64,000 nt of DNA from an uncultured Actinomycetota bacterium (lineage in GTDB: Bacteria; Actinomycetota; Actinomycetes; Streptosporangiales; Streptosporangiaceae): NCBI GenBank assembly GCA_963842265.1, contig CAWJGE010000010.1, positions 114,673-178,672 on the forward strand, given 5' to 3'. The number at the start of each line of letters is the position of its first letter. The first letter of the stretch is position 1. The notes below the pieces were generated by a model. It ran no database searches. It was not told the DNA's origin and was given only the letters and a program-made list of their open reading frames with translations. Of this stretch, positions 41,103-63,628 are shown one piece after another. Both the position numbers and the translations under genes were made by a program.

Positions 41103-41149
41103 GCCTCCCGGAGGAAGCCCTGGTCTTCAGGCCGGGGAGGAATCCGGTG

Positions 41150-44078: not shown

Positions 44079-45938
<1,860 letters not shown>

Positions 45939-45944
45939 GCGGCC

Positions 45945-49886: not shown

Positions 49887-50503
49887 GCCCGCGACGGCTC
49901 GCCGTGCCGCCGGGCCGGGCCGGCCTCTGGCTGACCAGGCGCCTGGCGGTCGCCAGACGCGGCGCCGACCTGCTCGACCGCAAGCTCCAGGTCCTTCAGC
50001 GCGAACTCGACCGGCAGCGCGGCTCGGCGGCACGTGCCGCCGCGGAGTGGGAGCGCCGCCAGGCCGACGCCGACGGCTGGTTGCTGCGGGCGGCGCTGCT
50101 CGGCGGCGAGCGGGCGATCAGGCTGGCCGCCGCCGGTACGTTCGCGGAGGTGACGATCTCCTATGCCGCCACCATGGGGGTGCGGTATCCGGCCGAGGCG
50201 ACCTGCGCCACCCCGCCGCCCGTCGGCAGGGATGGTCCCGCCCTCGCCGCGGCGCGTGAGGCGCACCGCGTCGCGCTCGCCGCAGCCATGCGGCATGCCG
50301 CGGCGGCCGAGGCGCTCCGGGTCCTCGAGGCCGAGACGGTCGTCACCAGGTACCGGCTCCGCGCGGTCAGGGACCGGTGGATTCCCCGCCTCGAGCAGGC
50401 GCTCGCCGAGGTGACGTTCGCCATAGAGGAGCTGGAACGGGCCGACGCGGCGCGGCTCCGCCTGGCCGAGACCGCCCGGCGTCGGCCGTCCGCGGCCGGA
50501 TGA
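49883..50503 (+). CDS. atpD: A/V-type ATPase central-stalk subunit D
   Basis: LARRGADLLDRKLQVLQRELDR... 206 aa, last gene of the operon. Confidence 0.8.
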   Translation: MSPRRLAVPPGRAGLWLTRRLAVARRGADLLDRKLQVLQRELDRQRGSAARAAAEWERRQADADGWLLRAALLGGERAIRLAAAGTFAEVTISYAATMGVRYPAEATCATPPPVGRDGPALAAAREAHRVALAAAMRHAAAAEALRVLEAETVVTRYRLRAVRDRWIPRLEQALAEVTFAIEELERADAARLRLAETARRRPSAAG

Positions 50504-50508
50504 CCATT

Positions 50509-50790
50509 TCACTCTGCGGCCTCGTGGCCGATGACCCGGTGAGCCAGCACGATGTCGCCGGACCAGCCGCAAGCCCCGCAGAAGCAGACGAAGACGCGGT
50601 CGCGGCCCGTCCAGTACTCAGTGGTCAGCCCGTGGCCGCCATCAGCCAGCGACAACGCCGCCGCGCACGCCGGGCAGTACCGGGGCGCGTCCCGCCGATG
50701 CCGTTCGGCATCAACCGGAAACCACCCCCGCCCGACGTCACCACCAACAGGAACCCAGCGCCAGCCGACCGCGGCCTTCCGGTTTTCGTT
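50509..50790 (-). repeat. Left copy of long direct repeat (degenerate copy of small Cys-rich ORF plus last codons of the Rieske oxygenase gene)
   Basis: My manual alignment to 62071-62387 gives 11 mismatches in the first ~248 nt, then a ~35-nt indel, then shared CCGCGGCCTTCCGGTTTTCGTT. Confidence 0.9.
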
Positions 50791-51126
50791 TATGCCAGGT
50801 GTGCTCTCGGTGATGGTGGCCCGGGTAATGACCTGCTGCTTGTCGGCGCGGAACGCACTCGATGTTGAGCGCGGCGTAGAGGATCTCGCAGAACTAGCTG
50901 GGGCTTGGAGCAGAAGGCGGGGGTATAGGGCGACTCGCTGGCGAGGGCGGGTCGTTGCCGCTGGCGGCCTGAGCGGTGATGGCACCGAGCTTGAGTTTGG
51001 TGATTCCCAGGGTTCCAGGGCGCCCGGTCCTGAGTTCGTCGTTCATCTACCTGATTGGCAAGTGCGGGTACGGGAGCGCGGCGCGATGGTCTCCGGGAGG
51101 AGCTTCAGCCGGTGCGGGCAATAGAC

Positions 51127-52767
51127 TCAAGACGTCTCGCCTGGTGCAGACTGAAGGCGGGCGGCTTGCTTGTCGAGGTTGCGGACCTGCGCCGACTCCG
51201 GCCCGTAGGCGGCGGCGAGCAGTGGCCGGACGGCTCGCAATTCCGCGATCGCTGACTCGGTCTCACCCGTGCTCGCCAGCAACTGGGCGATGACGAACCG
51301 GGATTCCATAACCTTGGCCGCCTCGTCCGCGTCCCGTGCCGCTAGCGGGACGGCGTTCATCACGTAGTAGCGAAGCTGAGGGAGTGCCTTGTCTGGCTTT
51401 CCGGCCTGCGCGTAGGCGTGCCCCGCCTGGTAGGCGCAGTCAAGTGCCCATGGATCAGCGGCTCCCAGGTGCTGCCGGTAGGCCGCTCCGGCCTGCTCGA
51501 AAAGCTGCGCGGCGCGACTGTACTGGCCGCCAATCAGCAGCGCGGCGGCCAGCGTGCGTCGCATCTGCAGTTCGAGGACGGAACCGGGGACGGCGCGGTC
51601 CAGTCCCGCTTCGAGCAGGTTAATCGCATCGGACGGGTGCTCGCCCTCAAGGAGTACCTGGACGTCAGCGCGCATCCGCGCGGCCGCCTCCTCGGTGAGC
51701 GGGCAGGTGGTCCCTGTACCGGGCCCGTCGTCGGCGGCCTTGCCGTCGGCAGGCACATGGAAAGGGTTACGGCCGGTCAGGCCGAGCAGTGGCTGCCGGA
51801 ACGGCCTTACCGGGTCCCGCCTTTCGTCACCTCCCGGCAACAGGCCATCCGCAACCGCGACGGTCCCAGCAGCGACCGGAAGCAGCGCCTGGTACACCGC
51901 CTCGGCGGCAGGCCGCGCGGCCGGGTCCTTGGCCAGCATCGCCGCCACCAGCGCGTCAAGCGCGGGCGGCGCCGAGGGCCGCGCCGCCGCGACGGAAGGC
52001 ACCGCGGATTCCCGGTGCGCGACCCGCAGCGGCAACCGCGACGACCCATGGAATGGCACGTCGCCGGTGAGCAGCTCAAACATCAGGCAGCCGAGCGAGT
52101 ACACATCCGATGCGGCAGTGACCAGCTGTCCGGCCCACTGTTCCGGCGACATGTAGGCGGGCGTGCCGACGGTACGGTCGACCTGGGTAAGCCTGGGCAG
52201 CGCCCCGGCGCCGCGCAGGATCGCGATGCCGAAGTCGAGCACCTTGACCAGGCCGCCGTCGGTCACCATGATGTTGGCCGCCTTGATGTCGCGGTGCACG
52301 ATGTCCACCCGGTGCACGTCGGCAAGAACCGCCGCGATCTGCGCGGCGATCGCCACCGCCCACGCGACGCTCGGCGTATCCGGACCCGAGAAAGACGCGC
52401 CGTCAAGCAGTGTCTCCAGCGTCGATCCGCGCAGTAGCTGCATGACGAGCCAGAGCTGCCGCGCCCCATCCGGCAGATCGTCCACGCCGGTGTCGTAGAC
52501 GGCGGGCACGCCAGCCAGCTCCAACCGCGCCGTTATCCGGATCTCGCGCAGGAACCGCTTCTGGTCCCGATCGAGCGCGTCGAGGATCTCCACCGCCTCC
52601 GGCGAGTCCGGCGACCCAGGCACATAGGGAGGCGGCCGGAGCAGCTTGACCGCGACCGGCCGGTCAAGCCGCTCGTCGTAGCCGAAGTGAACCTCGCTCA
52701 TGCCGCCGCGGCCGAGCAGCCCGTCGATCCGGTACCGCCCGGCGAGTCGGCGTTTCCCGTCTGTCAT
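51127..52767 (-). CDS. Hanks-type Ser/Thr protein kinase with C-terminal TPR-like domain, no TM segment
   Basis: GRGGMSEVH, VAVKLL, HRDIKAANIMV, DFGIA, GTPAYMSPEQ. C-terminal helical repeats (AYAQAGKPDKALPQLRYYV...). The start lies 14 nt after the hsdR stop. Confidence 0.9.
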   Translation of the reverse strand: MTDGKRRLAGRYRIDGLLGRGGMSEVHFGYDERLDRPVAVKLLRPPPYVPGSPDSPEAVEILDALDRDQKRFLREIRITARLELAGVPAVYDTGVDDLPDGARQLWLVMQLLRGSTLETLLDGASFSGPDTPSVAWAVAIAAQIAAVLADVHRVDIVHRDIKAANIMVTDGGLVKVLDFGIAILRGAGALPRLTQVDRTVGTPAYMSPEQWAGQLVTAASDVYSLGCLMFELLTGDVPFHGSSRLPLRVAHRESAVPSVAAARPSAPPALDALVAAMLAKDPAARPAAEAVYQALLPVAAGTVAVADGLLPGGDERRDPVRPFRQPLLGLTGRNPFHVPADGKAADDGPGTGTTCPLTEEAAARMRADVQVLLEGEHPSDAINLLEAGLDRAVPGSVLELQMRRTLAAALLIGGQYSRAAQLFEQAGAAYRQHLGAADPWALDCAYQAGHAYAQAGKPDKALPQLRYYVMNAVPLAARDADEAAKVMESRFVIAQLLASTGETESAIAELRAVRPLLAAAYGPESAQVRNLDKQAARLQSAPGETS

Positions 52768-52781
52768 CCGCCACCACCGCT

Positions 52782-55700
52782 CTACAGGCCATAACGTAAC
52801 GCGCCGGACCCGCCGGTCTCCCGTTCCATCTCGGCGCGTAGCCGCGCCAGTGCCTCCTCGCGCAACGGATCGGTGATGATCCGGTAAGCGCGACGCCGGG
52901 ACGCTTCCTTGACCGCCTTACGGAACTCGTCGTTGTCGAAGTACAGCTTCATGAACTCGGTGTTCCGTTCGGCGTTCTCTGCCACGATGTCGTCCAGCCG
53001 GTCGTCGGCCACCTGGCCGAACCGCGCCTCGTCGTTCATCAGTCCGACCTGCTGCATCTCGGTGTCCGACACCAGCCCGACCACCTGCTGGTACACGAGG
53101 ATCTCGTCCCCGGTGCTGAGGTCGAGCCCGAACCGCTCGTTCAGCTCCCTGATCACCTCCGCTAGGTGCTTGACCTCAGGCTCACGGAAGCCGCTCCCGT
53201 CGGCCGAGTGCCCGCGCACCACGCCATCCTCACCCGAGGAAGACAGCGACACGTTGTGTGCCCCGGTGAGTTCAAGCCGGAAGTGCGACAGGTCAGCATC
53301 ACCGATGTCCACCGACGTGGCGGGCCGCCCCGGCAGCCGCAGCAGCAGCACCCGCCCGTACTGGTACAGCCGCTCAAGCTCCTCGTCGCCCCAGGCGACG
53401 ATCTGCGCGATCAGCGCATATGCCCGCGTGTAGTCCCGCAGCGCCTTACGGAACTCCTCCCGCTGCTCGTCATCCTCCAGGGCAAGGAACCGGTCGATCG
53501 CCGGCCGCAGGTACCCATGCAGCCGCGCGTGCAGCGCCCGTTCGGCCACGTCCGGCAGCCGCCCTGGCCCTCCTTCCATCAGCACCCGGACGAACGCCTC
53601 CATCTCGGGCACGGCGAGTACCGCGTACGCCATTACCTCCCGCTGCTTGTCATACAGCAGGTTCGGGTCCTCAGGCGTCGCGATCGTCGTCTCGAACCAT
53701 GGCTTGAACGCTGCCTGAATGTCGTCGGCCGAGTTCACGAAGTCAAGCACCCGCACGTCATCCTGCGACTTGAGCGGGTGGATCCGGTTCAGCCGGGACA
53801 GCGTCTGCACCGCCGCGACCCCGGTCAGCGGCTTGTCCACGTACATCGCGCACAGCAGCGGCTGGTCGAACCCGGTCTGGTATTTCTCCGCCGCGACAAG
53901 CAGCCGGTACTCCCGCTTGCCGCTCGTCGCGGCGTGTGGGTCGTCGGCCCGCGTGTAGTCGAACATCTTCGGCAGCTGCCCCTCGGGAAACCCGTTGAGC
54001 TGCGCCTCGGTGACCGTGATCCCGGGCGTCGGCTCAAGCGACCCGGAGAACGCCACCAGCGTCCCGTAGCCGAGGGCGTCCGCGTACGTCTGCATCGCCT
54101 GGTACATGGCGAGCGCGTCCGCGCGGCCGCGCGTCACCACCATGGCCTTCGCCCGCCCGCCAAGCCGCCGCGCAACGTTGTCCCGGAAGTCATCGATGAT
54201 GAGCTTCGCCCGCTGGTCGACCGACGTGGGATGGCGCACCGCGAACTTGACCAGTTCCCGCTTCGCTTTCCGCTCGTCCACCTCTGGGTTCGCGGACAGC
54301 GACTCCTGCTGTTCGACGGCGAGGTTGCGCAGCCGCCACTTGAGGTCATAGGTGATGTAGTTGGCCAGGACGTCGAGGATGTACCCCTCCTCGATTGCCT
54401 GCCGCATCGAGTACACGTGGAACGGCACGTTCATGCCGGTCTCACCTGGCTTTTCGGGGTTCGGCCGTGCCGGGTCGAAGAGGCCGAACAGGTTCAGCGT
54501 CCGAGACGTCGGCGTCGCGGTGAACGCGAAGTACGACAGGTTCGGCTGCTTGCGCCGCGTCCGGCCCAGGTACTCGAGCGGCGTCTCGTCCGGCCGCGCC
54601 TCATTGTCCGCCCCGATCGCCTGCCGCAGCCGGGCCGCCGCGTCGCCGCCCTGGGAGGAGTGCGCCTCGTCGACGATGACGGCGTACCGCTTGCCGCCGA
54701 GCTCGGCGCCGGCGATCTTGCTCAGGACGTAGGGGAACTTCTGCAGCGTCGAGATGATGACCTTCGACGTCGAGTCCTCGAGCGCCGCGGCGAGCTGCGC
54801 GGAGTCCTCGTCTATCCGCATCACCACGCCCGGCGTGTGATCGAACTGGTAGATCGTCCGCTGCAGCTGCCGGTCGAGCACGGTCCGGTCGGTGATCACG
54901 ATGACCTTGTGGAACACCTGCTCGTTCGTGTCGGAGAACAGGGTGGACAGCCGGTGCGCGAGCCAGGCGATCGTATTGGACTTCCCCGACCCAGCCGAAT
55001 GCTCGACCAGGTAGTCCTGCCCCGCCCCGTGCTCCCGTGCGTCCGTGACCATCCGCTGCACCGCGTCCCACTGGTGGTAGCGCGGGAAGATCCGCTGCGC
55101 AGCATGCGGATTGTCCTTCGGGCCGGCCGTCTGCACATGCAGGTAGCGCTGCAGGATTTCCAGCCAGTTGTCCCGCTGCCAGATGTTCTCCCACAAATAA
55201 GAAACAGAATAATCATTCCGAACGGGTGCGGGGTTCCCCGCCCCGCCCGAATTCCCCGCCCCGGCGGACCCGACGTTAAACGGCAGGAACTCGGTATCGC
55301 CACCGCTCAACCGGGTCGTGATGAACGCCCGGTCCGGATCGACCGCGAAATGCACCAGCGTCCGCCTGGCGAAGTAGAGTTCATTTGGATCCCGCCGCCG
55401 GTACTGTGTGACCGCATCATCCGCGTCCTGCCCGGTCATCGGGTTCTTCAGCTCGACCGAAGCCACCGGCAGCCCGTTCACGAAGAACGCCAGGTCCACG
55501 GAATCGTTACGGTCCCGCGCCGAGAAATGCAGCTGCCGTTCCACCGACAGCACGTTCGCGTCGTACTCCTTGAGAGCATCGGCAGCCAGCGTATGCCCCG
55601 GCCGGAAATAGCACAGGTCCACCAGCACCCCGCGGTCCTTCACCCCATGCCGCAGCACATCCAGGACCCCCCGCGTGTCGACCTCGTTAGCGACCCGGAT

Positions 55701-55919
55701 CGCGAACGCCCGCATCGCGGTCGCCTGATCCCCGCCATGCAGCTCGATCAGCTTCTCGAACTTATTTATCTGCGTCTTCCCGACGAATTCCCACAACTCT
55801 GCAGTGGCAAGCCCAAGTTCCGTATCATAGGCTCGCGGTCCTCGTATCCACCCCCGCCGCAGCAACTCATACTCAACCCGCTCCTCAAACGCGAACTCGG
55901 TATGCACCCCCGTACTCAT
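52782..55919 (-). CDS. hsdR: Type I restriction enzyme R subunit (HsdR)
   Basis: N-terminal nuclease motif DLAFFVNGLPVASVELKNP. Helicase motifs HSAGSGKSNT and VDEAHSSQ. 1045 aa. Confidence 0.9.
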   Translation of the reverse strand: MSTGVHTEFAFEERVEYELLRRGWIRGPRAYDTELGLATAELWEFVGKTQINKFEKLIELHGGDQATAMRAFAIRVANEVDTRGVLDVLRHGVKDRGVLVDLCYFRPGHTLAADALKEYDANVLSVERQLHFSARDRNDSVDLAFFVNGLPVASVELKNPMTGQDADDAVTQYRRRDPNELYFARRTLVHFAVDPDRAFITTRLSGGDTEFLPFNVGSAGAGNSGGAGNPAPVRNDYSVSYLWENIWQRDNWLEILQRYLHVQTAGPKDNPHAAQRIFPRYHQWDAVQRMVTDAREHGAGQDYLVEHSAGSGKSNTIAWLAHRLSTLFSDTNEQVFHKVIVITDRTVLDRQLQRTIYQFDHTPGVVMRIDEDSAQLAAALEDSTSKVIISTLQKFPYVLSKIAGAELGGKRYAVIVDEAHSSQGGDAAARLRQAIGADNEARPDETPLEYLGRTRRKQPNLSYFAFTATPTSRTLNLFGLFDPARPNPEKPGETGMNVPFHVYSMRQAIEEGYILDVLANYITYDLKWRLRNLAVEQQESLSANPEVDERKAKRELVKFAVRHPTSVDQRAKLIIDDFRDNVARRLGGRAKAMVVTRGRADALAMYQAMQTYADALGYGTLVAFSGSLEPTPGITVTEAQLNGFPEGQLPKMFDYTRADDPHAATSGKREYRLLVAAEKYQTGFDQPLLCAMYVDKPLTGVAAVQTLSRLNRIHPLKSQDDVRVLDFVNSADDIQAAFKPWFETTIATPEDPNLLYDKQREVMAYAVLAVPEMEAFVRVLMEGGPGRLPDVAERALHARLHGYLRPAIDRFLALEDDEQREEFRKALRDYTRAYALIAQIVAWGDEELERLYQYGRVLLLRLPGRPATSVDIGDADLSHFRLELTGAHNVSLSSSGEDGVVRGHSADGSGFREPEVKHLAEVIRELNERFGLDLSTGDEILVYQQVVGLVSDTEMQQVGLMNDEARFGQVADDRLDDIVAENAERNTEFMKLYFDNDEFRKAVKEASRRRAYRIITDPLREEALARLRAEMERETGGSGALRYGL

Positions 55920-57168
55920 ACCGTGACCCCTCCCGTAACCGCCGCCGTGATGAGAGCCTGCCGCCGCTCAGTTGCAAGCAGCGAGAATCGTGCATCGATG
56001 TATCACGAAATTCCGTGAACTCTATTAGGCGATGCGTCGAGAGCTTGTCGTGCCTTGACCTGTTGATCTAGCGGCGGAACGGGAATCCTGAATAGATTTC
56101 AAAACGCTCGTTATTCAAGATCCTTATTCGACTGTACGTGCGGCCCGACGCCCGGATTTCTCTCGTATGCTGACGAAAAGCCGCCATAGGACGAACCTGC
56201 GGAATATCCGCGTGAATCGGACAGATACATGACTTGCTGTACAGCTGACGTGTCGTTCCGCGGTCGCCTCGTGGTCGAGCGTCGGCTACTTTTCCAAGCG
56301 ATTCGCCAATGCCCACAATCAAGATGCTTTCGGCGGGGAATCGCGGAACGCTGCGTCAAAGTCGATCCCTACTCACACTACTTATCGGCGCTGTTCAGGT
56401 CAAGACTTCCCCCAAGAGCCGCCGCGATGTACCACGGCATGTTGCCGGAGTCAGCTGGGCGCGAAGTATCGGTCTGTGGGAGTCGTAGCCGTGTCTGTAC
56501 AGAATTTATGATGCGGCGGAGGGTGCAATGGCTTCCACTCAGGCGTTTGCGATGTCGCCCAGCCTCGCTAGCGCGTCGAAGTCGCCTCAGCAACACCGTC
56601 GGTTGAACGCATGCCTGAAGATTATCTGCAGGCGGATCAAGCTTGCATCGATCCGGGCCGTCTCGGCGTCGAGGAAGTCGGCGATCCGTCGCTGCTCGTC
56701 AAGTGACGGAAGCGGCACTTCTATCGAGCGAAATGCGTCCCAGGAGATGTCGAACTGGTTAGGCGGCATGTACTTGCCAAGACGTTCGTACTCTCGTACC
56801 AGGTGCTTAGATCGCAGCAGGTGATGAACAAACGCGGGGTACGCACGGCTCCGATCGATTTCCATTACCCAGTACGCCGGGCTTGTGATTCCGCGAACCG
56901 AGGAGACGCCTACTGACCCATGCGGCTTGCCGAGGCGGTTCATGATCACATCGCCCTCACGGGCGATCTTGTATCCGGAGAGGTCTTCGCTTGCAGCCGG
57001 ACGTCCGTCATTGTCGTCACGCTGGCGGACGCCTTCGTGTAGCCCCACGCCTAGCAGAGGGAGGTCGATCTCCCCGAAGTGCTCAGTTCGATGCAGGAAT
57101 GCGCGGAGTGCTGTCTGCGTCCAGTGCGCCTTGTTGCCGTGGAACGCCACTGAGCCCTGGAGTGTCAC
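55916..57168 (-). pseudogene. hsdS: Type I specificity subunit (hsdS): first TRD and central conserved region intact, second half decayed
   Basis: GTG at 57166-57168. TRD1 ends ...IEVPLPSLDEQRRIADFLDAETARIDASLIRLQ. Beyond 56587, recognisable pieces (ALARLGDIANA, GNMPWYIAAAL, ILIVGIGESLGKVA, FRIPVPPLDQQ, ERRQALITAAVTGGVTV*) lie in three different frames with in-frame stops. The final TGA overlaps the hsdR ATG. Confidence 0.7.
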
Positions 57169-59163
57169 CCTGTCACCTCGCCAAGCAGCTTCTGGATCTG
57201 GCTTTCCAGGTTCGCGCAGTTCCGCGTCGATCTCGGCCATTGGCCGCGGCGGCGTGTAAACGTAGAAGTGACGCGTGAACGGGATCTCGTAGCCGATCTT
57301 GGTTTTGTCGTGGTCGATCCAGGCGTCAGGGACATGGGGGAGTACCTCGCGGCCGAAGTAGGCCTTCACGTCCTCGTCTAGAGGCACGTTCTCATAGTCG
57401 CGCAGGTCTGGATCCGGCAGGGGAGCACCCTTGGCCGTCTGCACCTCGCCGTCGAGGTCGGACACCGACACCGCCGCCCAGATGCCCTTCAGAACTGGGG
57501 GCGAGCTGGGCCATAGCGCTCCGCCCGCCTTAGCCGCCGCGAGCAGCCCAGCCTCGGCCTCCCGCTTCGTCCACCACACCGAGCCGAGGGCATTCCGGAA
57601 CGCCGTTATGAGCGCGTCCCGCCCATCCCATTTCGCTAGGGCCTTCGACGCTTTCAGGGCGGCGAGGGTGTCGTCGGTCAACTCGAACCGCTGCTTCAGT
57701 GGCCGCTCCACGGTGATCCGCTGGTAGCCGAAGTCCCGCGTCGAGAACACCTTCACTCGCCCGTGGTCCGGATGCTCCGGATCGGCGGCAACGGTCAGGG
57801 CTTCCCCGTACACCGTCGTGATGTGCTCGATCTGGTCGTCGCCGATCTGCTTGCGCTTGTCACCGAGGGACTTGCGCATCTTCTCCCATTGGTCGCGGGC
57901 GTCGAGCAGGACGACCTTGCCCGCCAGGGCCGGGTCCTTCCGGTTGGTGAGGATCCAGAAGTAGGTGGAGATCCCGGTGTTGTAGAAGAGCTGGTCCGGC
58001 AGCGCGACGATCCCTTCGAGCCAGTTGTTCTCCAGGATCCACTTACGGATGTTCGACTCGCCGGAGTCCGCCGCGCCGGTGAACAACGGCGACCCGTTGA
58101 AGACGATCGCGAGTCGGCACCCCTTGCCCTGGACCGGCTCCATCTTGGAGATCATGTGCTGCAGGAACAGGAACGACCCGTCGTTGATCCGTGGCAGCCC
58201 GGCCCCGAACCGCCCCGCGTAGCCGAGGGCGGCCTTCTCGTCTTCGACGTCCTGCTTGACGGTCTTCCACTCGACGCCGAACGGCGGGTTGGCCAGCATG
58301 TAGTCGAACTTCTTCTTCTGGTACCCGTCGTCGCTGAACGAGTTCCCGTAGAAGATCGAGCCGGGCTGGTCGCGCAGCAGCATCTCCGAGCCGCAGGTCG
58401 CCCACGACTGGGGGTTCAGTTCTTGCCCCCAGAGATAGACCCTTGCGTTTGGATTGAATGACTTGATCTTGTCTTCCGCAGCGGTCAGCATGCCTCCGGT
58501 GCCGCAAGCTGGGTCGAGGATGTTGATGACTTGGCCTTCGCCGCTGATCGTGTCCCGGTCCGGGGCGATCAGCAGGTTCACCATCAGGTGGATGACCTCG
58601 CGCGGCGTGAAGTGCTCACCGGCGGTGGCGTTCGCGTCCTCGTAGAACTTGCGGATCAGATGTTCGAAAACATAGCCCATGTCGTGCGTGGACAGCTTCT
58701 CTAGGTCCTTCATCCCGGCGAACTGACCGATAACGTCGTAGAGGATCTTCGACTCGGCCATCCGGGTGATCTGGTTGTCCAAGTCGAACCGCTCGATGAT
58801 CTTCCGCACGTTCTCCGAGAAGTCGGCGATGTAGTCCCGCAGGTTCTTCGCCACCTGCGGCGCGTCGGCTGCGATCGTCGAGAAGTCCTGCCTGGACGTG
58901 TTGTAGAAGGGCAGCTTCGCCGCGAGCTGCAGGGGGCGGTCCTTGTTCTTGATGCCCTGGCTGGTCAGCGCCGCGTCCCGGTCCCGGACCGCTTGCCGGG
59001 TCTTCGCCATCACCGCGTCGAGCCGCCGCAGGACGGTCAGCGGCAGGATCACCTCGCCGTACTCATGCCGCATGTAGTGACCACGAAGCTTGTCCGCCAC
59101 CGACCAGATGTCGGCCGCCATCCGCTGATGCGACGGACCCGAGGTTGTTGGTCCCGTTGTCAC
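57165..59163 (-). CDS. hsdM: Type I methyltransferase subunit (HsdM) with a 1-nt frameshift about 15 codons before its natural stop
   Basis: FTPREVIHLMVNLL, ILDPACGTGGML, LANPPFG. The track ORF 56587-59163 reads through into hsdS. In the alternative frame the tail is ...LESQIQKLLGEVTG* with a GTGA overlap onto hsdS. Confidence 0.85.
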
Positions 59164-61061
59164 TGACGCCGCCCCTTCATCTCGTGTCTGTCCTGCTCCT
59201 GCACCCGGCTCGCGGCCGGAAGTTCATACTCGGGCGCGACCGCGCCGGTGGTCAGCGCGTAGATCGTCTCCCCGATCACCTTCGCGCCGAGGTCTGACAA
59301 TGCGGCCAGTGCCTGCTCAATCTCGCTCAGGCGCCGGAACGCCTCGCCGTACCGCCGCTGCTCGGCGAGGGGCAGCCGGGGGATACGGCACCGGCGCAAG
59401 TCGTCCCGGTTGATTGCTCCGAGCGTATTGGCGACCGGCAGCGCGGCGACGTCGCTTCGCAGGAACAGCGCTACGAAGTACGGATCGAGCCGGGTGCCGT
59501 CGATCTCGACGACCTGCGCGATGCCGCTGACCTCTACGAACCGCTCGATCGCGTCCTCGTCGCTGGCCTTCTCGGCGGTCGCCACGACCGGCGGCCTGCC
59601 CTGGGTCCGCAGCAGCACGTCTCCCGCCTGGGGCGTGTCATCCCGCGCCCGGATCGTCAGCGCCCCCACGCGCTCAAGCTCCGCGAGGGTCACGCAAGCG
59701 TAGCGGCTCGTCGCCGTGGGCGCCGCGAACCGCGGCAGCCCGCGTCCCACCGCCGCGTATATCTCGGCGAGCCGCCCCGTCACTTGGACGAGGTCCGCGG
59801 CGGACGCCTGGCCTCGCCCCGCCAGATAGCGAGACGGCAGCAGGCAGGCGCCCTCATCGAGGAGATCGAGCCGCTCCACCGTGCGGGAAACAGCGGGATC
59901 GCCGCCATCGAACAGCTGCTGCCAGGCGCCGAACTCAAGCGGCACGTCAGCCGGGTCGCCGAGTCCGGAAAGGTCGATCATGCGCACCGGCGTACGGTCG
60001 GGCGCGCCGCCGGGGCGTCGCAGTACCCACAGGCAGATATCGGTGCCAGGCAGCGAACCCATGCCCTTCGGCAGCGCGATCACCGCGCGGAGCACGCCGG
60101 TTCGCACCAGCGCGGCCCGGATGTGCTCACCGGACGGCTGCACACAAGCCCGCTGTGACACTGCGGCGACCGCGACCCCGTGCGGCCGAAGGTGCGCGTA
60201 GCAGTGCTGCACCCAGGCCAGTTCGCTGTCACGCGTCGCCGGTATACCGAACTCCCAGCGCCGGTCCGTGGTCAGCTCCGCGGCTGGCCAGTCCGGCCGG
60301 TCGAACGGCGGTTCGCACACCACGGCAGCGGCCTTGCCCAGGTAAGCGCCGAGCTGGCTGTCGGTGAACGAGTCCCCGGCATGTACTTCATACGGTGCCC
60401 CGTGTGAGTTCCCCGACAGGTTGAATGCCGCGATCCGGGCCGCCTTCTCGTCGGTGTCCTGCCCGGCGAGCCGGATCCGCGCGCCGAACCGGTCTGCCAC
60501 CGCCATCAGGGCCACCGCTGCCCCGCACGCTGGATCGAGGACTACCGGCAGCTCCGGGTCGTCGTTCGCGTCACCGCGATATTGTCCGCCTCCGGACGGG
60601 ACCCTGTCCTGGTCATACGGGCGATCCGGCCAGGCGCTATCGTCACGAGCTGCCCGGTCCGGTGCGATCGACCGAGGAAGCAGCGCCGCCATTGCCCGAG
60701 CCAGCAGGTCACGGGGGAGCAGGTCGCTGATGGATCGCTCCGGCAGCCACTTCCTCGCCTCCGCGAACGTCATGTCGAAGGTCTTGCCGAAGCTCTTATC
60801 CATGGCGTCCGCGCCAGACGCGCCAACCCGGATCGTCCCGCCATCCGTACGCCCCGCCGTTGCGAGCTGATCCGCCTTTCCTGTCTCCTTCAGCCAGGTC
60901 AGGACCTCGGCCCGGTCGAAGGCCGGGCTGTTCGGCGATCCGCCTGCCGGCTTCGGAAACTCCGGATGCCGCTTCCGCCAGTTGGACACGGCAGCCCGCC
61001 CCACCCCGGCCATTCGTGCGATGGCCGCCGCAGTGATCAGCTCCCGCCCCTCGGCCTCCAT
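59160..61061 (-). CDS. HTH + N6-adenine-methylase-like + single TRD fusion protein (atypical EPPF catalytic motif)
   Basis: N-terminal ITAAAIARMAGVGRAAVSNWRKRHPEFP (MerR/excisionase-type HTH). VVLDPACGAAVAL (motif I). VVCEPPFDRPDW in place of NPPF/Y. C-terminal IPRLPLAEQRRYGEAFRRLSEIEQAL (HsdS-type conserved region). GTGA overlap with hsdM. Confidence 0.75.
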   Translation of the reverse strand: MEAEGRELITAAAIARMAGVGRAAVSNWRKRHPEFPKPAGGSPNSPAFDRAEVLTWLKETGKADQLATAGRTDGGTIRVGASGADAMDKSFGKTFDMTFAEARKWLPERSISDLLPRDLLARAMAALLPRSIAPDRAARDDSAWPDRPYDQDRVPSGGGQYRGDANDDPELPVVLDPACGAAVALMAVADRFGARIRLAGQDTDEKAARIAAFNLSGNSHGAPYEVHAGDSFTDSQLGAYLGKAAAVVCEPPFDRPDWPAAELTTDRRWEFGIPATRDSELAWVQHCYAHLRPHGVAVAAVSQRACVQPSGEHIRAALVRTGVLRAVIALPKGMGSLPGTDICLWVLRRPGGAPDRTPVRMIDLSGLGDPADVPLEFGAWQQLFDGGDPAVSRTVERLDLLDEGACLLPSRYLAGRGQASAADLVQVTGRLAEIYAAVGRGLPRFAAPTATSRYACVTLAELERVGALTIRARDDTPQAGDVLLRTQGRPPVVATAEKASDEDAIERFVEVSGIAQVVEIDGTRLDPYFVALFLRSDVAALPVANTLGAINRDDLRRCRIPRLPLAEQRRYGEAFRRLSEIEQALAALSDLGAKVIGETIYALTTGAVAPEYELPAASRVQEQDRHEMKGRRQ

Positions 61062-61086
61062 AGCTCCACCGTACTCACAACCTCAT

Positions 61087-61128
61087 GTTGTCGCAAACGC
61101 TTGTGAACAGTGGCGACAATGTTCACAA
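61087..61128. promoter_or_regulatory. Interleaved inverted repeats in the divergent intergenic region (TTGTCGC/GCGACAA and TTGTGAACA/TGTTCACAA)
   Basis: TTGTGAACA at 61101-61109 pairs with TGTTCACAA at 61120-61128. TTGTCGC at 61088-61094 pairs with GCGACAA at 61113-61119. Confidence 0.4.
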
Positions 61129-61274
61129 ATCTGTATTCTGAACTAAGGCCGGAGGTGGACTACGCCGGTCACTTCGCGAGCGCTCGCAATGTCGGCGGCT
61201 GACTATAGCTTCTCGGCTGCGAAGTGCGACCAAACCAGCTTGGCAGAAAGGTCGTCGTCGGTATGATAAGTGGT

Positions 61275-61508
61275 ATGACACGGCAGAAGATCGCGATTAC
61301 CCTGCCGGAGGAGCAGGTGGCCGCGGCGCGGCAGGCTGTCGCGGAGGGCCGGGCCGCTTCAGTCTCCGCCTTCATTTCGCAGGCACTTGCGCGACGCGAC
61401 GCGGATGAAGAGATGGCCGAGACGATCGCCGAGATCTACGCGGAGAGCGGCCAGCCGACCGAGGAAGACCGGCTATGGGCTCGCCGCGTGCTTGGCATGG
61501 AGCCATGA
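61275..61508 (+). CDS. Ribbon-helix-helix (CopG-like) antitoxin
   Basis: MTRQKIAITLPEEQVAAARQAVAEGRAASVSAFISQAL. The track ORF starts at 61224; I prefer the internal ATG. Confidence 0.7.
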   Translation: MTRQKIAITLPEEQVAAARQAVAEGRAASVSAFISQALARRDADEEMAETIAEIYAESGQPTEEDRLWARRVLGMEP

Positions 61509-61885
61509 CCGGTGCGACCCTCGACACCGGGGCGCTGATCGCGCTTGAGTCGGGCAGCACACGGATGGCGGTGCTGGTGGAGGAAGCTCTCGCCGGCCGC
61601 GCGGAGCTGGCCGTCCCGGCCGGGGTGCTGGCTCAGGCGTGGCGCGGCGGCGGACGTCAGGCTCGGATCGCTCGCCTGCTGCACGCGTCGAACACGTCGG
61701 TCGTCCCGCTGGACGCCAAGATGGCGCTTCGGGTGGGTGCCCGGTGCGCGGCCACTCGGACGGCGGACATAGTGGATGTGAGCGTGGCCATCTGCGCAAG
61801 CGACCGGGGACATCCCGTCATCACCAGCGACCCAGACGATATCGGCGCGATCGACCCGGCGCTGACGCTTGTCCGGCCGACATGA
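61505..61885 (+). CDS. vapC: PIN-domain toxin (VapC-like)
   Basis: ATGA overlap with the antitoxin stop. LDTGALIALE, ...DIVDVSVA..., ITSDPDD acidic residues. Confidence 0.75.
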   Translation: MTGATLDTGALIALESGSTRMAVLVEEALAGRAELAVPAGVLAQAWRGGGRQARIARLLHASNTSVVPLDAKMALRVGARCAATRTADIVDVSVAICASDRGHPVITSDPDDIGAIDPALTLVRPT

Positions 61886-62070
61886 CGCCGGAGCCGCCCT
61901 AGGCAAAGACCATGATCCAGGGCTGCACCGCCACTACCAGCGACGATGCCAGTAAGGTCACCAGCGGTCGGCCCGCCCTGGCGCCCGATGCATATTGCGA
62001 GCGACACCCAGCCCAACCAGTGGCGCTATATAGCACCCGAAACCGCAGACAAATCCTCAACGCCGCGCCC

Positions 62071-62361
62071 TTACTCCGCGGCCTCGTGGCCGACGACGCG
62101 GGCAGCCAGCACGATGTCGCCGGACCAGCCGCAAGCCCCGCAGAAGCAGACGAAGACGCGGTCGCTGCCCGTCCAGTACTCGGTGGTCAGCCCGTGGCCG
62201 CCATCAGCCAGCGACAACGCCGCCGCGCACGCCGGGCAGTACCGGGGCGCGTCCCGGCGATGCCGCTCGGCATCAACCGGAAACCAGCCCCGCCCGACGT
62301 CACCACCAACAGGAACCCCACCACCAGCCGAAGCCCCCGGGCCAGCCGCGACCACCGTCAC
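62071..62361 (-). CDS. Small Cys-rich (CPAC...CFCGAC) zinc-ribbon-like protein, GTGA-coupled to the Rieske oxygenase gene
   Basis: VTVVAAGPG...RYCPACAAALSLADGGHGLTTEYWTGSDRVFVCFCGACGWSGDIVLAARVVGHEAAE. The GTG at 62359-62361 overlaps the oxygenase TGA. Confidence 0.55.
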   Translation of the reverse strand: MTVVAAGPGASAGGGVPVGGDVGRGWFPVDAERHRRDAPRYCPACAAALSLADGGHGLTTEYWTGSDRVFVCFCGACGWSGDIVLAARVVGHEAAE

Positions 62362-62387
62362 CCGGCCGCGGCCTTCCGGTTTTCGTT
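62071..62387 (-). repeat. Right copy of long direct repeat
   Basis: See 50509-50790. Confidence 0.9.
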
Positions 62388-63608
62388 CGCCCTGATGTGC
62401 AGCTTCTTCAGCGCGTCGGCCTGCGGGCTGAACCGGGACGAGGCCCGGTCGATGAAGTCGATGGCGAACGAGACGCCGGCGTCGAACTTGTTCTTCTCGC
62501 ACGGCAGGTCGATCCGCTCGCGGTAGTCCCGGTACACCCCGAGCGGATCCTCCCCCCGGGCCACCAGGGACATGTTCTCCTTGAACATCCGCCGCAGCAT
62601 CGTCACCCCGACGTCCGAACGTCCCAGGTGCTCCACGGTCCGGTCGGTGATCGGCCCCTGGGTGACCCAGGCCATCATGTCCTGCCCCTCGACATAGTCC
62701 ACCCGGTGCCTGCCGTTCGAGTCATACACCGGGATCTGGTAGTCCGGCACCTGCGGCTGATCGGGAAAGTCCACCCCAGCAGGCGCGTGCACGCTGTACA
62801 GCATGAACCTGGTGGTGGTCCGGTCGATCGGCACCCGGATCTGCATCTGCTCGATGTTGGCCCCGCCGACCCGCATGTTGTAGGGGAACACCAGCGGGTG
62901 GCCGATCTTCCAGTCGTCGTCCTCCTCGGACGCGCCCTCGACCACCCGGCGCTTGATGATGCCCCAGTCGAACGCGTCGAACCCCACCTTGACGTGCTTC
63001 TTGCCGAACGAGGGCGGCGCGTCGAAGCCCTGATGACGCGCCATGAACTCGAAGAACCGGCCGTGCAGCCACTCGGTGTGGTGCGGGTCGACGGCGTTCT
63101 CCATGATCTGCACGAAATTGCACGGCAAAAAAGTCCAGCCGATGTCCCGGACCCCGTCCATCACGAACACGTCGAACCGAGGCAGCTCCGGCGCGGGCGA
63201 GGGCCCGATGTAGGCCCACACCAGCCCGCCGAGCTCCTGCGCGACACCGGCGGCCGCCCGCACCCGCGAGCGGAAGTTGGTCTCCTCCCGCTCCGCGGGC
63301 TGATCGAGGCAGGAGCCGTCCACCCCGAACAGCCAGCCGTGGTACGGGCAGCGCAGCCCGTCGGACTCCACCACGCCGTAGGCCAGCGAGGCCCGCCGGT
63401 GCGGGCAGCCCTCCGGCAGGATGCCGTACTTACCGCGCGGCGTCTTGAACACGGCGAAGTCCTCGCCGAGCAGCCGGGCCGGCCGGACCGGGAACTCCTC
63501 GAGTTCGCGGGTGAACGCGACCGGGTACCAGTAGCGCCGCAGCAGCTCGCCCATGGGCGTACCCGCCGCGACCTGGGTCAGCTCGTCGTTCTGTTCGGCG
63601 GTCAGCAT
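62358..63608 (-). CDS. Rieske non-heme iron oxygenase, alpha subunit type
   Basis: CPHRRASL...CPYHGW Rieske motif and NAVDPHHTEWLHG iron motif. Start at the internal ATG 63606-63608 (MLTAEQNDELTQV...). Confidence 0.85.
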   Translation of the reverse strand: MLTAEQNDELTQVAAGTPMGELLRRYWYPVAFTRELEEFPVRPARLLGEDFAVFKTPRGKYGILPEGCPHRRASLAYGVVESDGLRCPYHGWLFGVDGSCLDQPAEREETNFRSRVRAAAGVAQELGGLVWAYIGPSPAPELPRFDVFVMDGVRDIGWTFLPCNFVQIMENAVDPHHTEWLHGRFFEFMARHQGFDAPPSFGKKHVKVGFDAFDWGIIKRRVVEGASEEDDDWKIGHPLVFPYNMRVGGANIEQMQIRVPIDRTTTRFMLYSVHAPAGVDFPDQPQVPDYQIPVYDSNGRHRVDYVEGQDMMAWVTQGPITDRTVEHLGRSDVGVTMLRRMFKENMSLVARGEDPLGVYRDYRERIDLPCEKNKFDAGVSFAIDFIDRASSRFSPQADALKKLHIRANENRKAAAG

Positions 63609-63628
63609 GAAAGCACTCCCAGAGAGAA

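What the first reader, a model, noticed from the sequence alone, without database searches (positions are those of the whole stretch)
50509..62387. 11.3-kb defence-type island bracketed by long direct repeats (attL/attR-like), with no recognisable integrase
Two direct repeats flank the segment 50791-62070: 50509-50790 (282 bp) and 62071-62387 (317 bp). By my manual alignment they differ at 11 positions in the first ~248 nt and by one ~35-nt indel. Both start exactly at the stop codon of a small Cys-rich ORF. Both end in the last codons (..NENRKAA) of the Rieske oxygenase gene, which is intact only next to the right copy. The enclosed segment carries a type I R-M-like operon, a Ser/Thr kinase and a RHH/PIN pair, and has visibly AT-richer patches (55.95-56.6 kb, 61.06-61.26 kb). 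This looks like insertion of a mobile island into the oxygenase/zinc-ribbon junction with duplication of the target. I could not find any integrase, recombinase or transposase inside.
Basis: partly seen in the sequence, partly recalled or inferred. Interest (0 to 1): 0.7.

Follow-up and report, generated by a model that had tools for sequence, protein, structure and literature searches.

The report
Restriction-modification defence island with long target duplication
An 11-kb anti-phage gene island with no integrase or transposase sits between two diverged copies of the end of the neighbouring operon; the same island carries such flanking copies at other genome sites, a known but unexplained way for restriction-modification genes to move.

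Summary
The repeats are real. 50511-50756 and 62073-62318 are 96% identical. A 35-nt indel follows, then 36 nt at 89%. There are only two copies in the window. Each copy is the whole small Cys-rich gene plus the last 27 nt of the Rieske oxygenase gene.

They bracket a kinase-linked type I restriction-modification (R-M) operon plus an RHH/PIN pair. No recombinase, transposase or tRNA was found.

The island is mobile. At 88-98% identity it occupies at least five unrelated sites in related actinobacterial contigs. At two other sites it is flanked by direct repeats made from the 3' end of the local neighbouring gene (155 nt; about 614 nt). A fourth site has a weak 29-nt candidate. This matches 'insertion of R-M systems with long target duplication' (Nobusato 2000; Furuta 2010).

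The att-site reading is not supported: repeat sequence and length differ at every site.

- Two relatives have the island at this site without the left copy.
- One has the same inner junction but a different outer flank.
- The ATPase operon is itself an inserted cassette.
- The predicted empty site was not found.

I favour recombination through carried-over flanking homology, but the mechanism is not established. One island end is exact to the nucleotide, which is unexplained.

The parts
50509..50790 (-). Left (orphan) repeat copy: the small Cys-rich ORF from its stop codon, plus the last 27 nt of the oxygenase gene. The oxygenase stop, the GTG start and 35 nt have been lost.
   Evidence: All Cys codons are kept. 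Its 3' end carries the allele seen in L001, L082 and L164.
50791..50881 (.). 91-nt junction segment of unknown origin between the oxygenase tail and the island.
   Evidence: No homologue in the window or in the other loci except L080 (identical) and L164/L165, which share 50791-50856 together with the same tail junction.
50882..51126 (.). 245-nt stretch downstream of the kinase gene, shared with island-bearing relatives.
   Evidence: Alignment A2: homology with L081 starts at 50882 and with L082 at about 50929. At other sites the island ends -19 to +36 nt from the kinase stop.
51127..52767 (-). Ser/Thr protein kinase with C-terminal TPR repeats; last gene of the defence operon.
   Evidence: Pfam Pkinase 1.1e-35 and TPR_12; PADLOC PD-T4-6 2.7e-79 and mad6. 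2361 homologues at E<=1e-30.
52782..55919 (-). HsdR, the type I restriction subunit.
   Evidence: Pfam HSDR_N, ResIII, SWI2_SNF2, T1R_D3-like; PADLOC REase_I.
55919..56586 (-). Remnant of the second half of hsdS. The C-terminal conserved motif lies at 55919-56179; the AT-rich stretch in between has no ORF with a family match.
   Evidence: tblastn of HsdS proteins from L082, L164, L166 and L167; GC 0.54-0.59; no Pfam hits for the local ORFs.
56587..59163 (-). HsdM fused to the first half of HsdS (target-recognition domain 1 plus the central motif LDEQRRIADFLDAETARID).
   Evidence: Pfam HsdM_N and N6_Mtase; PADLOC MTase_I 7e-246 and Specificity_I at residues 680-843. Relatives have separate HsdM (about 650 aa) and HsdS (about 410 aa).
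59160..61061 (-). Second N6-adenine methyltransferase, with an N-terminal HTH and a C-terminal specificity-like domain; first gene of the operon.
   Evidence: Pfam N6_Mtase 3.7e-22; PADLOC MTase_I 1.2e-61, mad1-like HTH at residues 6-38, Specificity_I at 475-586.
61224..61508 (+). RHH-type antitoxin candidate. Its start is uncertain; relatives aa.
   Evidence: Weak Pfam RHH_1 match (E 0.0047, below the curated cut-off). It overlaps the PIN gene. It is conserved at 92-94% nt in L003, L006 and L010.
61475..61885 (+). PIN-domain toxin.
   Evidence: Pfam PIN 6.2e-06, above the cut-off.
61886..61900 (.). Conserved 15-nt island terminus, CGCCGGAGCCGCCCT, directly after the PIN stop.
   Evidence: Homology ends here within 1-2 nt in the hot spot, L003, L010, L166, L169/170 and L171, each followed by different DNA.
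61901..62070 (.). 170-nt spacer between the island terminus and the small ORF. It is specific to hot-spot versions that carry RHH-PIN.
   Evidence: Present in L080, L081, L082 and L164. Only its last 40 nt are in L003. It is absent from relatives without RHH-PIN. About 40 nt of spacer-like sequence follows the left copy in L164/L165.
62071..62387 (-). Right (functional) repeat copy: the small Cys-rich ORF (62071-62361) translationally coupled to the oxygenase gene, plus the oxygenase 3' end.
   Evidence: The oxygenase + small ORF pair is conserved across Actinomycetota. This copy carries the L081 allele at all 11 sites where the two copies differ.
62358..63746 (-). Rieske (LigXa-like) oxygenase; the target operon.
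   Evidence: Pfam Rieske 1.3e-17, LigXa_C 1.2e-11. 536 relatives confirmed in the genome scan.
42438..50507 (+). Context: V/A-type ATPase operon, a separate inserted cassette that abuts the left repeat copy.
   Evidence: Pfam V_ATPase_I, ATP-synt_F, vATP-synt_E, ATP-synt_ab (x2), ATP-synt_D. Homology to L087 and others runs exactly 42437-50507. None of 80 metagenome loci has the small ORF or the oxygenase nearby. Their flanks also differ from each other.
40473..42437 (.). Context: TetR gene (40473-41102, -), 3'-truncated IS605-family TnpB (41237-42307, +) and the 5' remnant plus upstream region of an MFS gene (42244-42437). This is the left-flank version seen in L001.
   Evidence: Pfam TetR_N; OrfB_IS605, Cas12f1-like_TNB and HTH_OrfB_IS605. 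Alignment with the L001 TetR-MFS-small ORF-oxygenase locus.

Best explanation
What it is. The two repeats are two diverged copies of the 3' end of the oxygenase operon: the whole small Cys-rich gene plus the last 27 nt of the oxygenase gene. They bracket a mobile defence island. The island holds a five-gene operon (HTH-methyltransferase, HsdM, HsdS, HsdR, Ser/Thr kinase with TPR repeats) and an RHH/PIN toxin-antitoxin pair. It encodes no integrase or transposase. This is the arrangement described for restriction-modification gene complexes as 'insertion with long target duplication'.

Shown.
- The repeats exist and there are only two copies in the window.
- The island sits at several unrelated sites in related genomes.
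- At two other sites it is flanked by direct repeats made from the 3' end of the local neighbouring gene.
- Repeat length and sequence differ from site to site.

Inferred mechanism. I think homologous recombination made the duplication, not a site-specific enzyme. Island DNA that still carried a piece of the neighbouring gene from its previous host entered a related cell. It recombined with the same gene there. This could be a single crossover of a circular molecule, or one homologous join plus one illegitimate join of a linear fragment. Either route leaves one copy of the shared gene segment on each side of the island. One copy stays joined to the rest of the gene and stays functional. The other is an orphan that decays or is deleted.

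Once flanked by 74- and 62-nt runs of perfect identity, the island could loop out by RecA-type recombination. It could then re-enter another genome in the same way.

Not explained. How the island first reaches a completely new site is unknown. Why its PIN-side end is exact to the nucleotide is also unknown.
For: Repeats and island content.
- The repeat is real and two-copy.
- The island holds R and M genes and no mobility gene. The window has no tRNA.

The same island at other sites.
- L166 (island 90-94% nt to the window in two blocks; kinase 93% aa): between an alcohol dehydrogenase gene and a CN-hydrolase/peptidase gene. A 155-nt repeat (94%) is made of the last 155 nt of that gene, starting at its stop codon.
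- L169/L170: in a hut locus. Repeats cover the last about 614 nt of an amidohydrolase gene (87-95%), again starting at the stop codon. The orphan copy has lost 257 nt.
- L171: between a response-regulator gene and a MarR gene, with a possible 29-nt repeat 10 nt from each island end.
- L167 and L168 (Streptomyces): the five-gene operon without RHH/PIN and without repeats.

At this site.
- L080 is the same arrangement from another sample (98% nt).
- L164/L165 have the same oxygenase-tail/junction-segment joint, but their left flank is DUF222 instead of ATPase. Their left copy has lost Cys codons.
- In the window the left copy lies where L001 has its single small ORF relative to TetR-MFS.

The copies look like diverged alleles.
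- The right copy carries the L081 allele at 11 of 11 differing sites. The left copy carries the L001 allele at 6 of 11.
- Differences between copies are enriched for synonymous changes: 23 of 44 pooled over three sites, against 27% expected for random change (P=0.0003).
- The repeat boundary lies at the stop codon at three sites. That is expected if coding sequence is shared between donor and recipient and intergenic sequence is not.

Literature. Furuta, Abe and Kobayashi 2010 (PMC2853133) list R-M systems of types I-IV inserted with long, variable target duplications and no other mobile element. Left-right repeat identities there include 417/423, 384/412 and 388/397 bp.
Against: - No clean empty site for this exact arrangement (ATPase D, small ORF, oxygenase) was found.
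- L081 and L082 carry the island at this site with no left copy. Either the repeat arose after the island arrived or the orphan copy was deleted twice. Their breakpoints differ (50882 and about 50929), which fits deletion but does not prove it.
- Recombination through carried-over homology cannot explain the first arrival at a new site.
- The excess of synonymous differences is only marginally above what an on-the-spot duplication would give, with the orphan copy drifting and the intact copy constrained (P 0.04-0.09).
- The nucleotide-exact PIN-side end is not expected from random illegitimate joining. It hints at a defined cleavage or recognition event.
- The 29-nt repeat of L171 is at the edge of chance: score 33 against a null of 21.7 +/- 3.0 with a maximum of 35.
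Confidence: 0.55

Rival explanations
1. Site-specific integration by a recombinase encoded elsewhere. On this view the island is a non-autonomous, cis-mobilisable element, and its att sites lie inside the repeats or at the conserved PIN-side end.
For: The PIN-side end of the island is exact to within 1-2 nt in five or six different contexts. The island is bracketed by direct repeats at three sites. L167 has a serine recombinase gene about 9 kb from the operon.
Against: - There is no integrase, transposase or tRNA in or next to the island.
- The repeats at the different sites are unrelated in sequence and range from 29 to about 614 nt.
- The kinase-side end is ragged, from -19 to +245 nt.
- No terminal inverted repeat rises above chance.
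- Copies at one site differ by 4-13%.
Confidence: 0.12
2. On-the-spot target duplication. A double-strand break with long staggered ends (perhaps made by a restriction enzyme) is filled in, and linear island DNA is ligated between the two ends by Ku/LigD end joining. This would leave identical copies of a 30-600-nt target that later diverge.
For: Repeat lengths are long and variable, as in the published class, for which double-strand breakage was proposed (PMC2853133). Short unmatched filler stretches lie at the junctions: 10 nt at each end in L171, 53 nt in L169, 91 nt here. Orphan copies are decaying in L164 and L169. That Actinomycetota have end joining is my own knowledge.
Against: - The repeat boundary lies exactly at a stop codon at three sites. 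Random staggered cuts would not give that.
- The two window copies carry alleles seen separately in different relatives.
- The same inner junction occurs with two different outer flanks, the window and L164/L165. That needs a later homologous exchange anyway.
Confidence: 0.15
3. The repeat has nothing to do with movement of the island. It is a scar of merging two alternative versions of a variable hot spot. One version is TetR-MFS-ATPase-small ORF-oxygenase. The other is DUF222-kinase...PIN-small ORF-oxygenase. They would have been joined by one illegitimate join inside the oxygenase tail.
For: - The interval between the PPDK gene and the small ORF differs in almost every relative: 0.8 kb in L004, TetR-MFS in L001, other genes in L003, L006, L009 and L010.
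- L081 and L082 have the island here without the left copy.
- The left copy sits in an L001-like flank.
- L163 has a partial duplicate of the opposite flank, EthD-PPDK.
Against: The same island is flanked by repeats of local genes at two unrelated sites, so the association is not peculiar to this hot spot. The junction is shared with L164/L165, which have no ATPase or TetR flank. This rival also overlaps mechanistically with the favoured explanation (one homologous join plus one illegitimate join).
Confidence: 0.15
4. Assembly artefact: a chimeric contig that joins two strains at a shared gene.
For: The relatives are mostly metagenome-assembled genomes. The L080 contig breaks inside the right repeat.
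Against: A chimeric join at a shared gene would not create an oxygenase tail fused to a 91-nt segment and the region downstream of the kinase gene. That exact junction is seen in independent assemblies from other samples: L080, L164 and L165.
Confidence: 0.02

Closest known systems
Restriction-modification gene complexes inserted with long target duplication (Nobusato et al. 2000, Gene 259:99, cited from memory and as ref. 37 of Furuta, Abe and Kobayashi 2010, NAR 38:2428, PMC2853133)
   Same: R and M genes lie in an insert of under 20 kb, with no integrase or transposase. The insert is flanked by direct repeats far longer than transposon target duplications. The repeats are made of target sequence, vary in length between events and are imperfectly identical. 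Type I systems and one actinobacterium are among the published cases.
   Different: - The unit here is larger and composite: a five-gene kinase-linked type I operon plus an RHH/PIN pair.
- One island family is seen at five or more sites, which gives several events of one element.
- One end is exact to the nucleotide and the other is ragged.
- No clean empty site for this exact locus was found.
- Two relatives have the island here without the second copy.
Integrase-borne genomic islands, integrative elements and their cis-mobilisable derivatives (attL/attR direct repeats, often the 3' end of a tRNA or protein gene) (own knowledge)
   Same: Direct repeats bracket a horizontally acquired island at the 3' end of a gene, and one copy restores the gene.
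   Different: There is no integrase, no tRNA and no conserved core. The repeats at the different sites are unrelated and 29 to about 614 nt long.
Campbell-type single-crossover integration of a circular DNA carrying chromosomal homology. A natural example is the proposed ISCR1 circles that re-enter class 1 integrons and duplicate part of the 3' conserved segment (own knowledge).
   Same: The product is insert flanked by two copies of the homology segment. The inner junction is kept when the same circle enters a different genome version, as seen in the window versus L164/L165. One element end is fixed and the other variable.
   Different: No rolling-circle transposase or other enzyme that could make the circle is encoded in the island. 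No circular form has been observed.
Homology-facilitated illegitimate recombination, with one homologous anchor and one illegitimate join (de Vries and Wackernagel 2002; Prudhomme et al. 2002; own knowledge)
   Same: Foreign DNA is added next to a shared gene without a recombinase. One junction is homologous and the other has no homology.
   Different: The published events usually delete recipient DNA rather than duplicate it. Microhomology at the illegitimate join could not be tested here because the donor sequence is unknown.
Type I R-M systems; kinase-containing defences PD-T4-6 and MADS
   Same: HsdR, HsdM and HsdS homologues are present. The kinase matches PD-T4-6 and mad6 profiles, the methyltransferase matches mad2 and the HTH matches mad1.
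   Different: - The operon has an extra HTH-methyltransferase with its own specificity-like domain and a TPR-kinase. It is conserved as a five-gene unit down to Streptomyces.
- The mad7 and mad8 components that the MADS authors treat as mandatory (10.1101/2023.03.30.534895) did not match: no mad7 or mad8 model hit the seven island ORFs scanned.
- hsdS is broken in this window.

Membership tests
R-M insertion with long target duplication (criteria of Furuta et al. 2010, PMC2853133) | Both R and M gene homologues lie inside the inserted segment | tested here: met
   HsdR at 52782-55919; HsdM at 56587-59163; a second N6 methyltransferase at 59160-61061.
R-M insertion with long target duplication (criteria of Furuta et al. 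2010, PMC2853133) | Insert shorter than 20 kb | tested here: met
   50791-62070 is 11,280 bp.
R-M insertion with long target duplication (criteria of Furuta et al. 2010, PMC2853133) | Flanking direct repeats longer than 30 bp that are not a dispersed multi-copy family | tested here: met
   282 and 317 nt; two copies only in the 64-kb window; a single copy in all 79 related genome loci. The rest of the source genome could not be examined.
R-M insertion with long target duplication (criteria of Furuta et al. 2010, PMC2853133) | No mobility gene in or beside the insert | tested here: met
   No integrase, transposase or resolvase family matches any island ORF or junction ORF. The nearest mobility gene is a truncated TnpB at 41237-42307, 8 kb outside and separated by the ATPase cassette.
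R-M insertion with long target duplication (criteria of Furuta et al. 2010, PMC2853133) | A related genome has an empty site where the repeat occurs once and both flanks align | tested here: inconclusive
   The right flank and a single repeat copy are present in many relatives (L001, L004, L053 and others). The left flank (ATPase) is never adjacent. L001 supplies the TetR-MFS-small ORF-oxygenase version without the ATPase cassette.
Integrase-mediated genomic island with attL/attR | Tyrosine or serine recombinase encoded in the island | tested here: not met
   Pfam and PADLOC scans of all island ORFs and of the junction ORFs.
Integrase-mediated genomic island with attL/attR | Same att core, or a tRNA/tmRNA target, at independent insertion sites | tested here: not met
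   No tRNA in the window. The repeats at the hot spot, L166, L169 and L171 derive from four unrelated genes.
Classical DNA transposon | Terminal inverted repeats and a short fixed-length target duplication | tested here: not met
   The best inverted match between the island ends is 8 nt, at chance level. The duplications are long and variable.
Type I restriction-modification system | HsdR, HsdM and an intact two-domain HsdS | tested here: inconclusive
   HsdR and HsdM are intact. HsdS is split: its first half is fused to HsdM, its C-terminal motif lies at 55919-56179, and the second recognition domain was not recognisable. Activity is not testable with these tools.
MADS (methylation-associated defence system) | MAD6, MAD7 and MAD8 all present (mandatory in the authors' model) | tested here: not met
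   Only mad6-like (kinase), mad2-like and mad1-like matches were found. No mad7 or mad8 model hit the seven ORFs scanned.
VapBC-type toxin-antitoxin pair | Small RHH antitoxin gene overlapping a downstream PIN toxin gene | tested here: met
   PIN 6.2e-06, above the cut-off. RHH_1 match is weak (0.0047, below the cut-off). The genes overlap at 61475-61508. Function was not tested.

The most novel reading that the evidence does not exclude
The kinase-linked type I R-M plus RHH/PIN island may be an autonomous mobile element of a new kind. It would have a defined end, the 15-nt CGCCGGAGCCGCCCT directly after the PIN stop. It would insert at the 3' ends of genes using only its own nucleases or DNA-binding proteins (PIN/RHH, HsdR or the HTH-methyltransferase) together with host repair. 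Each jump would produce a long target duplication of variable length. If so, it would supply the missing mechanism for the 25-year-old observation of R-M insertion with long target duplication.
Probability: 0.12. Interest if true: 0.85.

Novelty: new member of a known kind. Interest (0 to 1): 0.5.

Why it matters
How restriction-modification and other defence genes move between genomes without their own integrase is still unexplained. 'Insertion with long target duplication' was described from genome comparisons in 2000 and 2010, and no mechanism has been shown since.

This island family offers several recent, independent events of one element in related soil actinobacteria:
- sites with repeats and sites without;
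- the same inner junction in two different genome versions;
- one exact end and one ragged end.

That makes the competing models directly testable by read mining and by simple genetics. The models are a homologous single crossover of a carried-over flank, a staggered break with end joining, and a recombinase supplied in trans.

It also shows that what looks like an att-flanked island can be something else. And it shows a conserved five-gene kinase-linked type I R-M operon in Actinomycetota that the defence catalogues I searched do not list as a unit.

Tried and rejected
- Exact-sequence look-ups of the window's own kinase and ATPase D proteins found nothing on record.
- Empty site. The genome scan with the oxygenase gave 79 loci. 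The metagenome scan with ATPase D gave 80 loci. None has ATPase next to the small ORF and oxygenase. L083 (96% ATPase D) ends 12 nt after the stop codon, too short to tell.
- Recombinase remnants. ORFs in 50791-51126, 61886-62070 and 55920-56586 have no Pfam match even at E<=0.1.
- The 91-nt junction segment. There is no nucleotide or translated match in the window or in about 170 loci, except in the sister contigs. I tested whether it is a diverged oxygenase C-terminus and found no support.
- Terminal inverted repeats of the island, and direct or inverted repeats at the ends of the ATPase cassette, are at chance level.
- Plasmid vehicle. tblastn of the kinase against 72,556 plasmids gave no match at E<=1e-40.
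- My own interim reading was that the repeat only reflects insertion of the ATPase-bearing segment and that the island is ancestral here. I downgraded it after finding flanking repeats of local genes at other island sites and the shared junction in L164/L165.
- The codon-position test for 'diverged alleles' against 'duplication on the spot' excludes pure neutral decay but does not separate the two models.
- A literature search for a described kinase-linked type I R-M system found none. One search failed on a term format.

Full report
**Observation.** The repeat is real. The repeat finder gives 50511-50756 vs 62073-62318 (246 nt, 96%) and 50755-50790 vs 62352-62387 (36 nt, 89%). MAFFT places one 35-nt indel between these stretches, with the extra bases in the right copy. 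A BLAST of the repeat against the whole window finds only these two copies. There are 10 mismatches in the ungapped 246 nt, and the longest identical runs are 74 and 62 nt.

On the - strand each copy is the complete small Cys-rich ORF, from its stop codon, plus the last 27 nt of the Rieske oxygenase gene (..NENRKAA). At the right copy the small ORF starts at a GTG that overlaps the oxygenase stop (GTGA), so the two genes are translationally coupled. The left copy has lost that stop and start and the 35 nt. The 35 nt lie in a low-complexity, length-variable part of the gene.

**What lies between the repeats.** All the large genes are on the - strand.
- A Ser/Thr kinase with TPR repeats (51127-52767; PADLOC PD-T4-6 and mad6-like).
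- HsdR (52782-55919).
- HsdM fused to half of HsdS (56587-59163).
- A second N6 methyltransferase with an N-terminal HTH and a specificity-like C-terminus (59160-61061).
- On the + strand, an RHH/PIN pair (61224-61885).

No ORF in the island or in the junction segments matches a recombinase or transposase family. There is no tRNA in the window.

The AT-rich patch at 55.9-56.6 kb is what remains of the second half of hsdS. The patch near 61.1-61.2 kb is the gap between the divergently transcribed methyltransferase and RHH genes.

The five-gene order methyltransferase, HsdM, HsdS, HsdR, kinase recurs in Streptomyces anthocyanicus, where the kinase is 63% identical. It is therefore a conserved system. 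It is not MADS: of the MAD6-8 components the authors treat as mandatory, only a mad6-like kinase matched, with no mad7 or mad8 hit among the seven island ORFs scanned.

**The target.** The oxygenase plus small ORF pair is conserved, with a single small ORF, in nearly all of 79 related genome loci across Actinomycetota. In the closest relatives, the gene to the left of the small ORF is not ATPase but a PEP-utilising enzyme (window 37.6-40.46 kb).

The interval between the two differs in almost every genome:
- 0.8 kb with only an EthD gene in L004 and L053;
- TetR-MFS in L001;
- DUF222, an F420-dependent reductase and RHH-PIN in L003;
- other genes in L006, L009 and L010.

So the whole stretch 40468-62070 of the window lies in a variable hot spot.

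The V/A-type ATPase operon is a separate cassette. Homology to ATPase loci from 80 metagenome contigs runs exactly 42437-50507. None of those loci has the small ORF or the oxygenase nearby, and their own flanks differ from one another.

To the left of the cassette, the window keeps a TetR gene and the 5' remnant and upstream region of the MFS gene seen in L001. A 3'-truncated IS605-family TnpB interrupts that remnant. The left repeat copy therefore sits where L001 has its only small ORF, with the ATPase cassette slipped in between.

**The island in relatives.** Kinase homologues at 88-98% identity are common. Their contigs give the following contexts.

| Locus | Site | RHH/PIN | Flanking repeat |
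|---|---|---|---|
| L080 | same as window (98% nt), other sample | yes | left copy present; contig ends in the right copy |
| L081, L082 | this site; left flank DUF222-EthD-PPDK | RHH called in both; PIN not called in L081 | none |
| L164/L165 | this site; left flank DUF222 | yes | second small-ORF copy, same tail junction |
| L163 | this site | right end not seen | partial copy of opposite flank (EthD-PPDK, 671 nt, 84%) |
| L166 | alcohol dehydrogenase / CN-hydrolase-peptidase | RHH called; PIN region aligns but not called | 155 nt, 94% |
| L169/L170 | hut locus (amidohydrolase) | yes | about 614 nt, 87-95% |
| L171 | response regulator / MarR | yes | possible 29 nt, 83% |
| L167 | next to a RecG-like gene | no | none |
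| L168 (Streptomyces) | other | no | none |

- **L081 and L082.** The right-hand junction (PIN, spacer, small ORF, oxygenase) is the same as in the window. Their homology with the window downstream of the kinase gene ends at different points, 50882 and about 50929.
- **L164/L165.** The second small-ORF copy lies just downstream of the kinase gene. It has the same oxygenase-tail junction to 66 nt of the 91-nt segment. This copy has lost Cys codons. About 40 nt of spacer-like sequence follow it.

**Other sites.** This result changed my reading.
- **L166.** The island (window 51146-61898) lies between an alcohol dehydrogenase gene and a CN-hydrolase/peptidase gene. It is flanked by a 155-nt repeat (94%) made of the last 155 nt of that gene, starting at its stop codon.
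- **L169/L170.** The island (window 51127-61898) lies in a hut locus. It is flanked by repeats that cover the last about 614 nt of an amidohydrolase gene (87-95%), again starting at the stop codon. The orphan copy has lost 257 nt.
- **L171.** The island lies between a response-regulator gene and a MarR gene. A possible 29-nt repeat sits 10 nt from each island end. Its score of 33 is at the edge of chance: the null is 21.7 +/- 3.0 with a maximum of 35.
- **L167 and L168.** The operon lacks RHH/PIN and has no flanking repeat.

So one island family, at five or more sites, is flanked at three of them by long direct repeats built from the local target gene. A fourth site has a weak candidate. Repeat lengths differ at every site.

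**The ends of the island.** After the PIN stop, the sequence CGCCGGAGCCGCC(C)T is shared, and then homology stops within 1-2 nt. This holds in the hot spot, L003, L010, L166, L169/170 and L171, each followed by different DNA.

The kinase-side end is ragged:

| Locus | Island end relative to kinase stop |
|---|---|
| L166 | -19 nt |
| L169 | 0 |
| L167, L171 | +9 nt |
| L164 | +18 nt |
| L163 | +36 nt |
| window, L081 | +245 nt |

No terminal inverted repeat rises above chance. I cannot explain the exact end.

**Comparison with what is known.** Furuta, Abe and Kobayashi (2010, PMC2853133) follow Nobusato et al. (2000). [quoted passage not shown] Left-right repeat identities there include 417/423, 384/412 and 388/397 bp. 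They give no mechanism; double-strand breakage was suggested. They hypothesise a cycle of insertion, amplification through the repeats, and release.

Their operational criteria are R and M genes inside, an insert under 20 kb, repeats over 30 bp and no mobility genes. All are met here. The clean empty site is only partly available. I file the finding as a new member of that kind.

**Mechanism.** I favour recombination through carried-over homology over a site-specific enzyme or a duplication made on the spot. The reasons are these.
1. The outer boundary of the repeat coincides with a stop codon at three sites. That is expected if the two copies come from diverged genomes that share coding sequence but not intergenic sequence.
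2. At the 11 sites where the window's copies differ, the right copy always has the allele of island-bearing L081. The left copy has the L001 allele at 6 sites.
3. The same inner junction occurs with two different outer flanks, in the window and in L164/L165. This needs homologous exchange or re-insertion of an excised circle.
4. Differences between copies are enriched in synonymous changes: 23 of 44 against 27% expected (P=0.0003). This is only marginally more than a duplication on the spot with a constrained intact copy would give (P 0.04-0.09).

This model does not explain arrival at a new site, nor the exact PIN-side end. L081 and L082 may be secondary deletions of the orphan copy, or they may represent the state before duplication. 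The order of events cannot be settled with the data at hand.

**Verdict.**
- It is wrong in its att-site flavour, its island limits and its predicted empty site.
- The kind of event is known. This family is a good system for finding out how such insertions happen.

Noticed in passing
window 42438-50507: The V/A-type ATPase operon behaves as a discrete cassette. It is 85-96% identical to operons on metagenome contigs whose flanks differ from the window and from each other. Here it lies between an MFS promoter remnant and the left repeat copy. No repeats above chance were found at its ends.
   Followed up: partly
window 41237-42307 (+) and 42244-42437: A 3'-truncated IS605-family TnpB (OrfB_IS605, Cas12f1-like TNB) has replaced most of an MFS transporter gene. 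The MFS 5' end and upstream region, and the neighbouring TetR gene (40473-41102), match the TetR-MFS pair of L001.
   Followed up: partly
window 55919-57163: hsdS is broken. Its first recognition domain and central motif are fused to HsdM. The C-terminal motif survives at 55919-56179. The AT-rich stretch between has no recognisable second domain. The recognition-domain region does not align even with the 98%-identical sister contig L080, which suggests a recent domain swap.
   Followed up: partly
window 51127-61061; L168 1786-11587 (Streptomyces anthocyanicus): A five-gene operon (HTH-methyltransferase with its own specificity-like domain, HsdM, HsdS, HsdR, TPR-kinase) is conserved from these Streptosporangiaceae-like genomes to Streptomyces. 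PADLOC sees it only as a type I R-M next to a PD-T4-6-like kinase. I found no paper that describes it as a unit.
   Followed up: partly
window 62071-62361 and homologues in L001-L079: The small Cys-rich protein (CPAC...CFCGAC; weak zinc-ribbon match) is a conserved, translationally coupled partner of a LigXa-like Rieske oxygenase across Actinomycetota. Its N-terminal part is a GGTGCTGG-type low-complexity stretch whose length differs in nearly every relative. Its function is unknown.
   Followed up: no
L163 3188-3858: In another relative a 671-nt partial copy (84%) of the opposite flank, the EthD gene and the end of the PEP-utilising enzyme gene, lies 36 nt from the kinase stop. A DUF222/HNH gene lies between that copy and the intact genes. 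This is a second kind of flank duplication in the same hot spot.
   Followed up: partly
window 61886-61900 and the matching positions in L003, L010, L166, L169, L171: The 15 nt after the PIN stop (CGCCGGAGCCGCCCT) form an island end that is exact to the nucleotide in five or six different contexts. The stop codon sits in the loop of a possible 5-bp hairpin (CCGGC...GCCGG). No explanation was found.
   Followed up: partly
L169 492-577: Three tandem 25-nt units that resemble the first bases of the flanking repeat lie immediately outside the orphan copy.
   Followed up: no
L167 20690-21616: A serine recombinase (Resolvase) gene lies about 9 kb from the RHH/PIN-less version of the operon, beyond DUF397/HTH_31 genes. 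I did not examine whether it belongs to a larger element.
   Followed up: no
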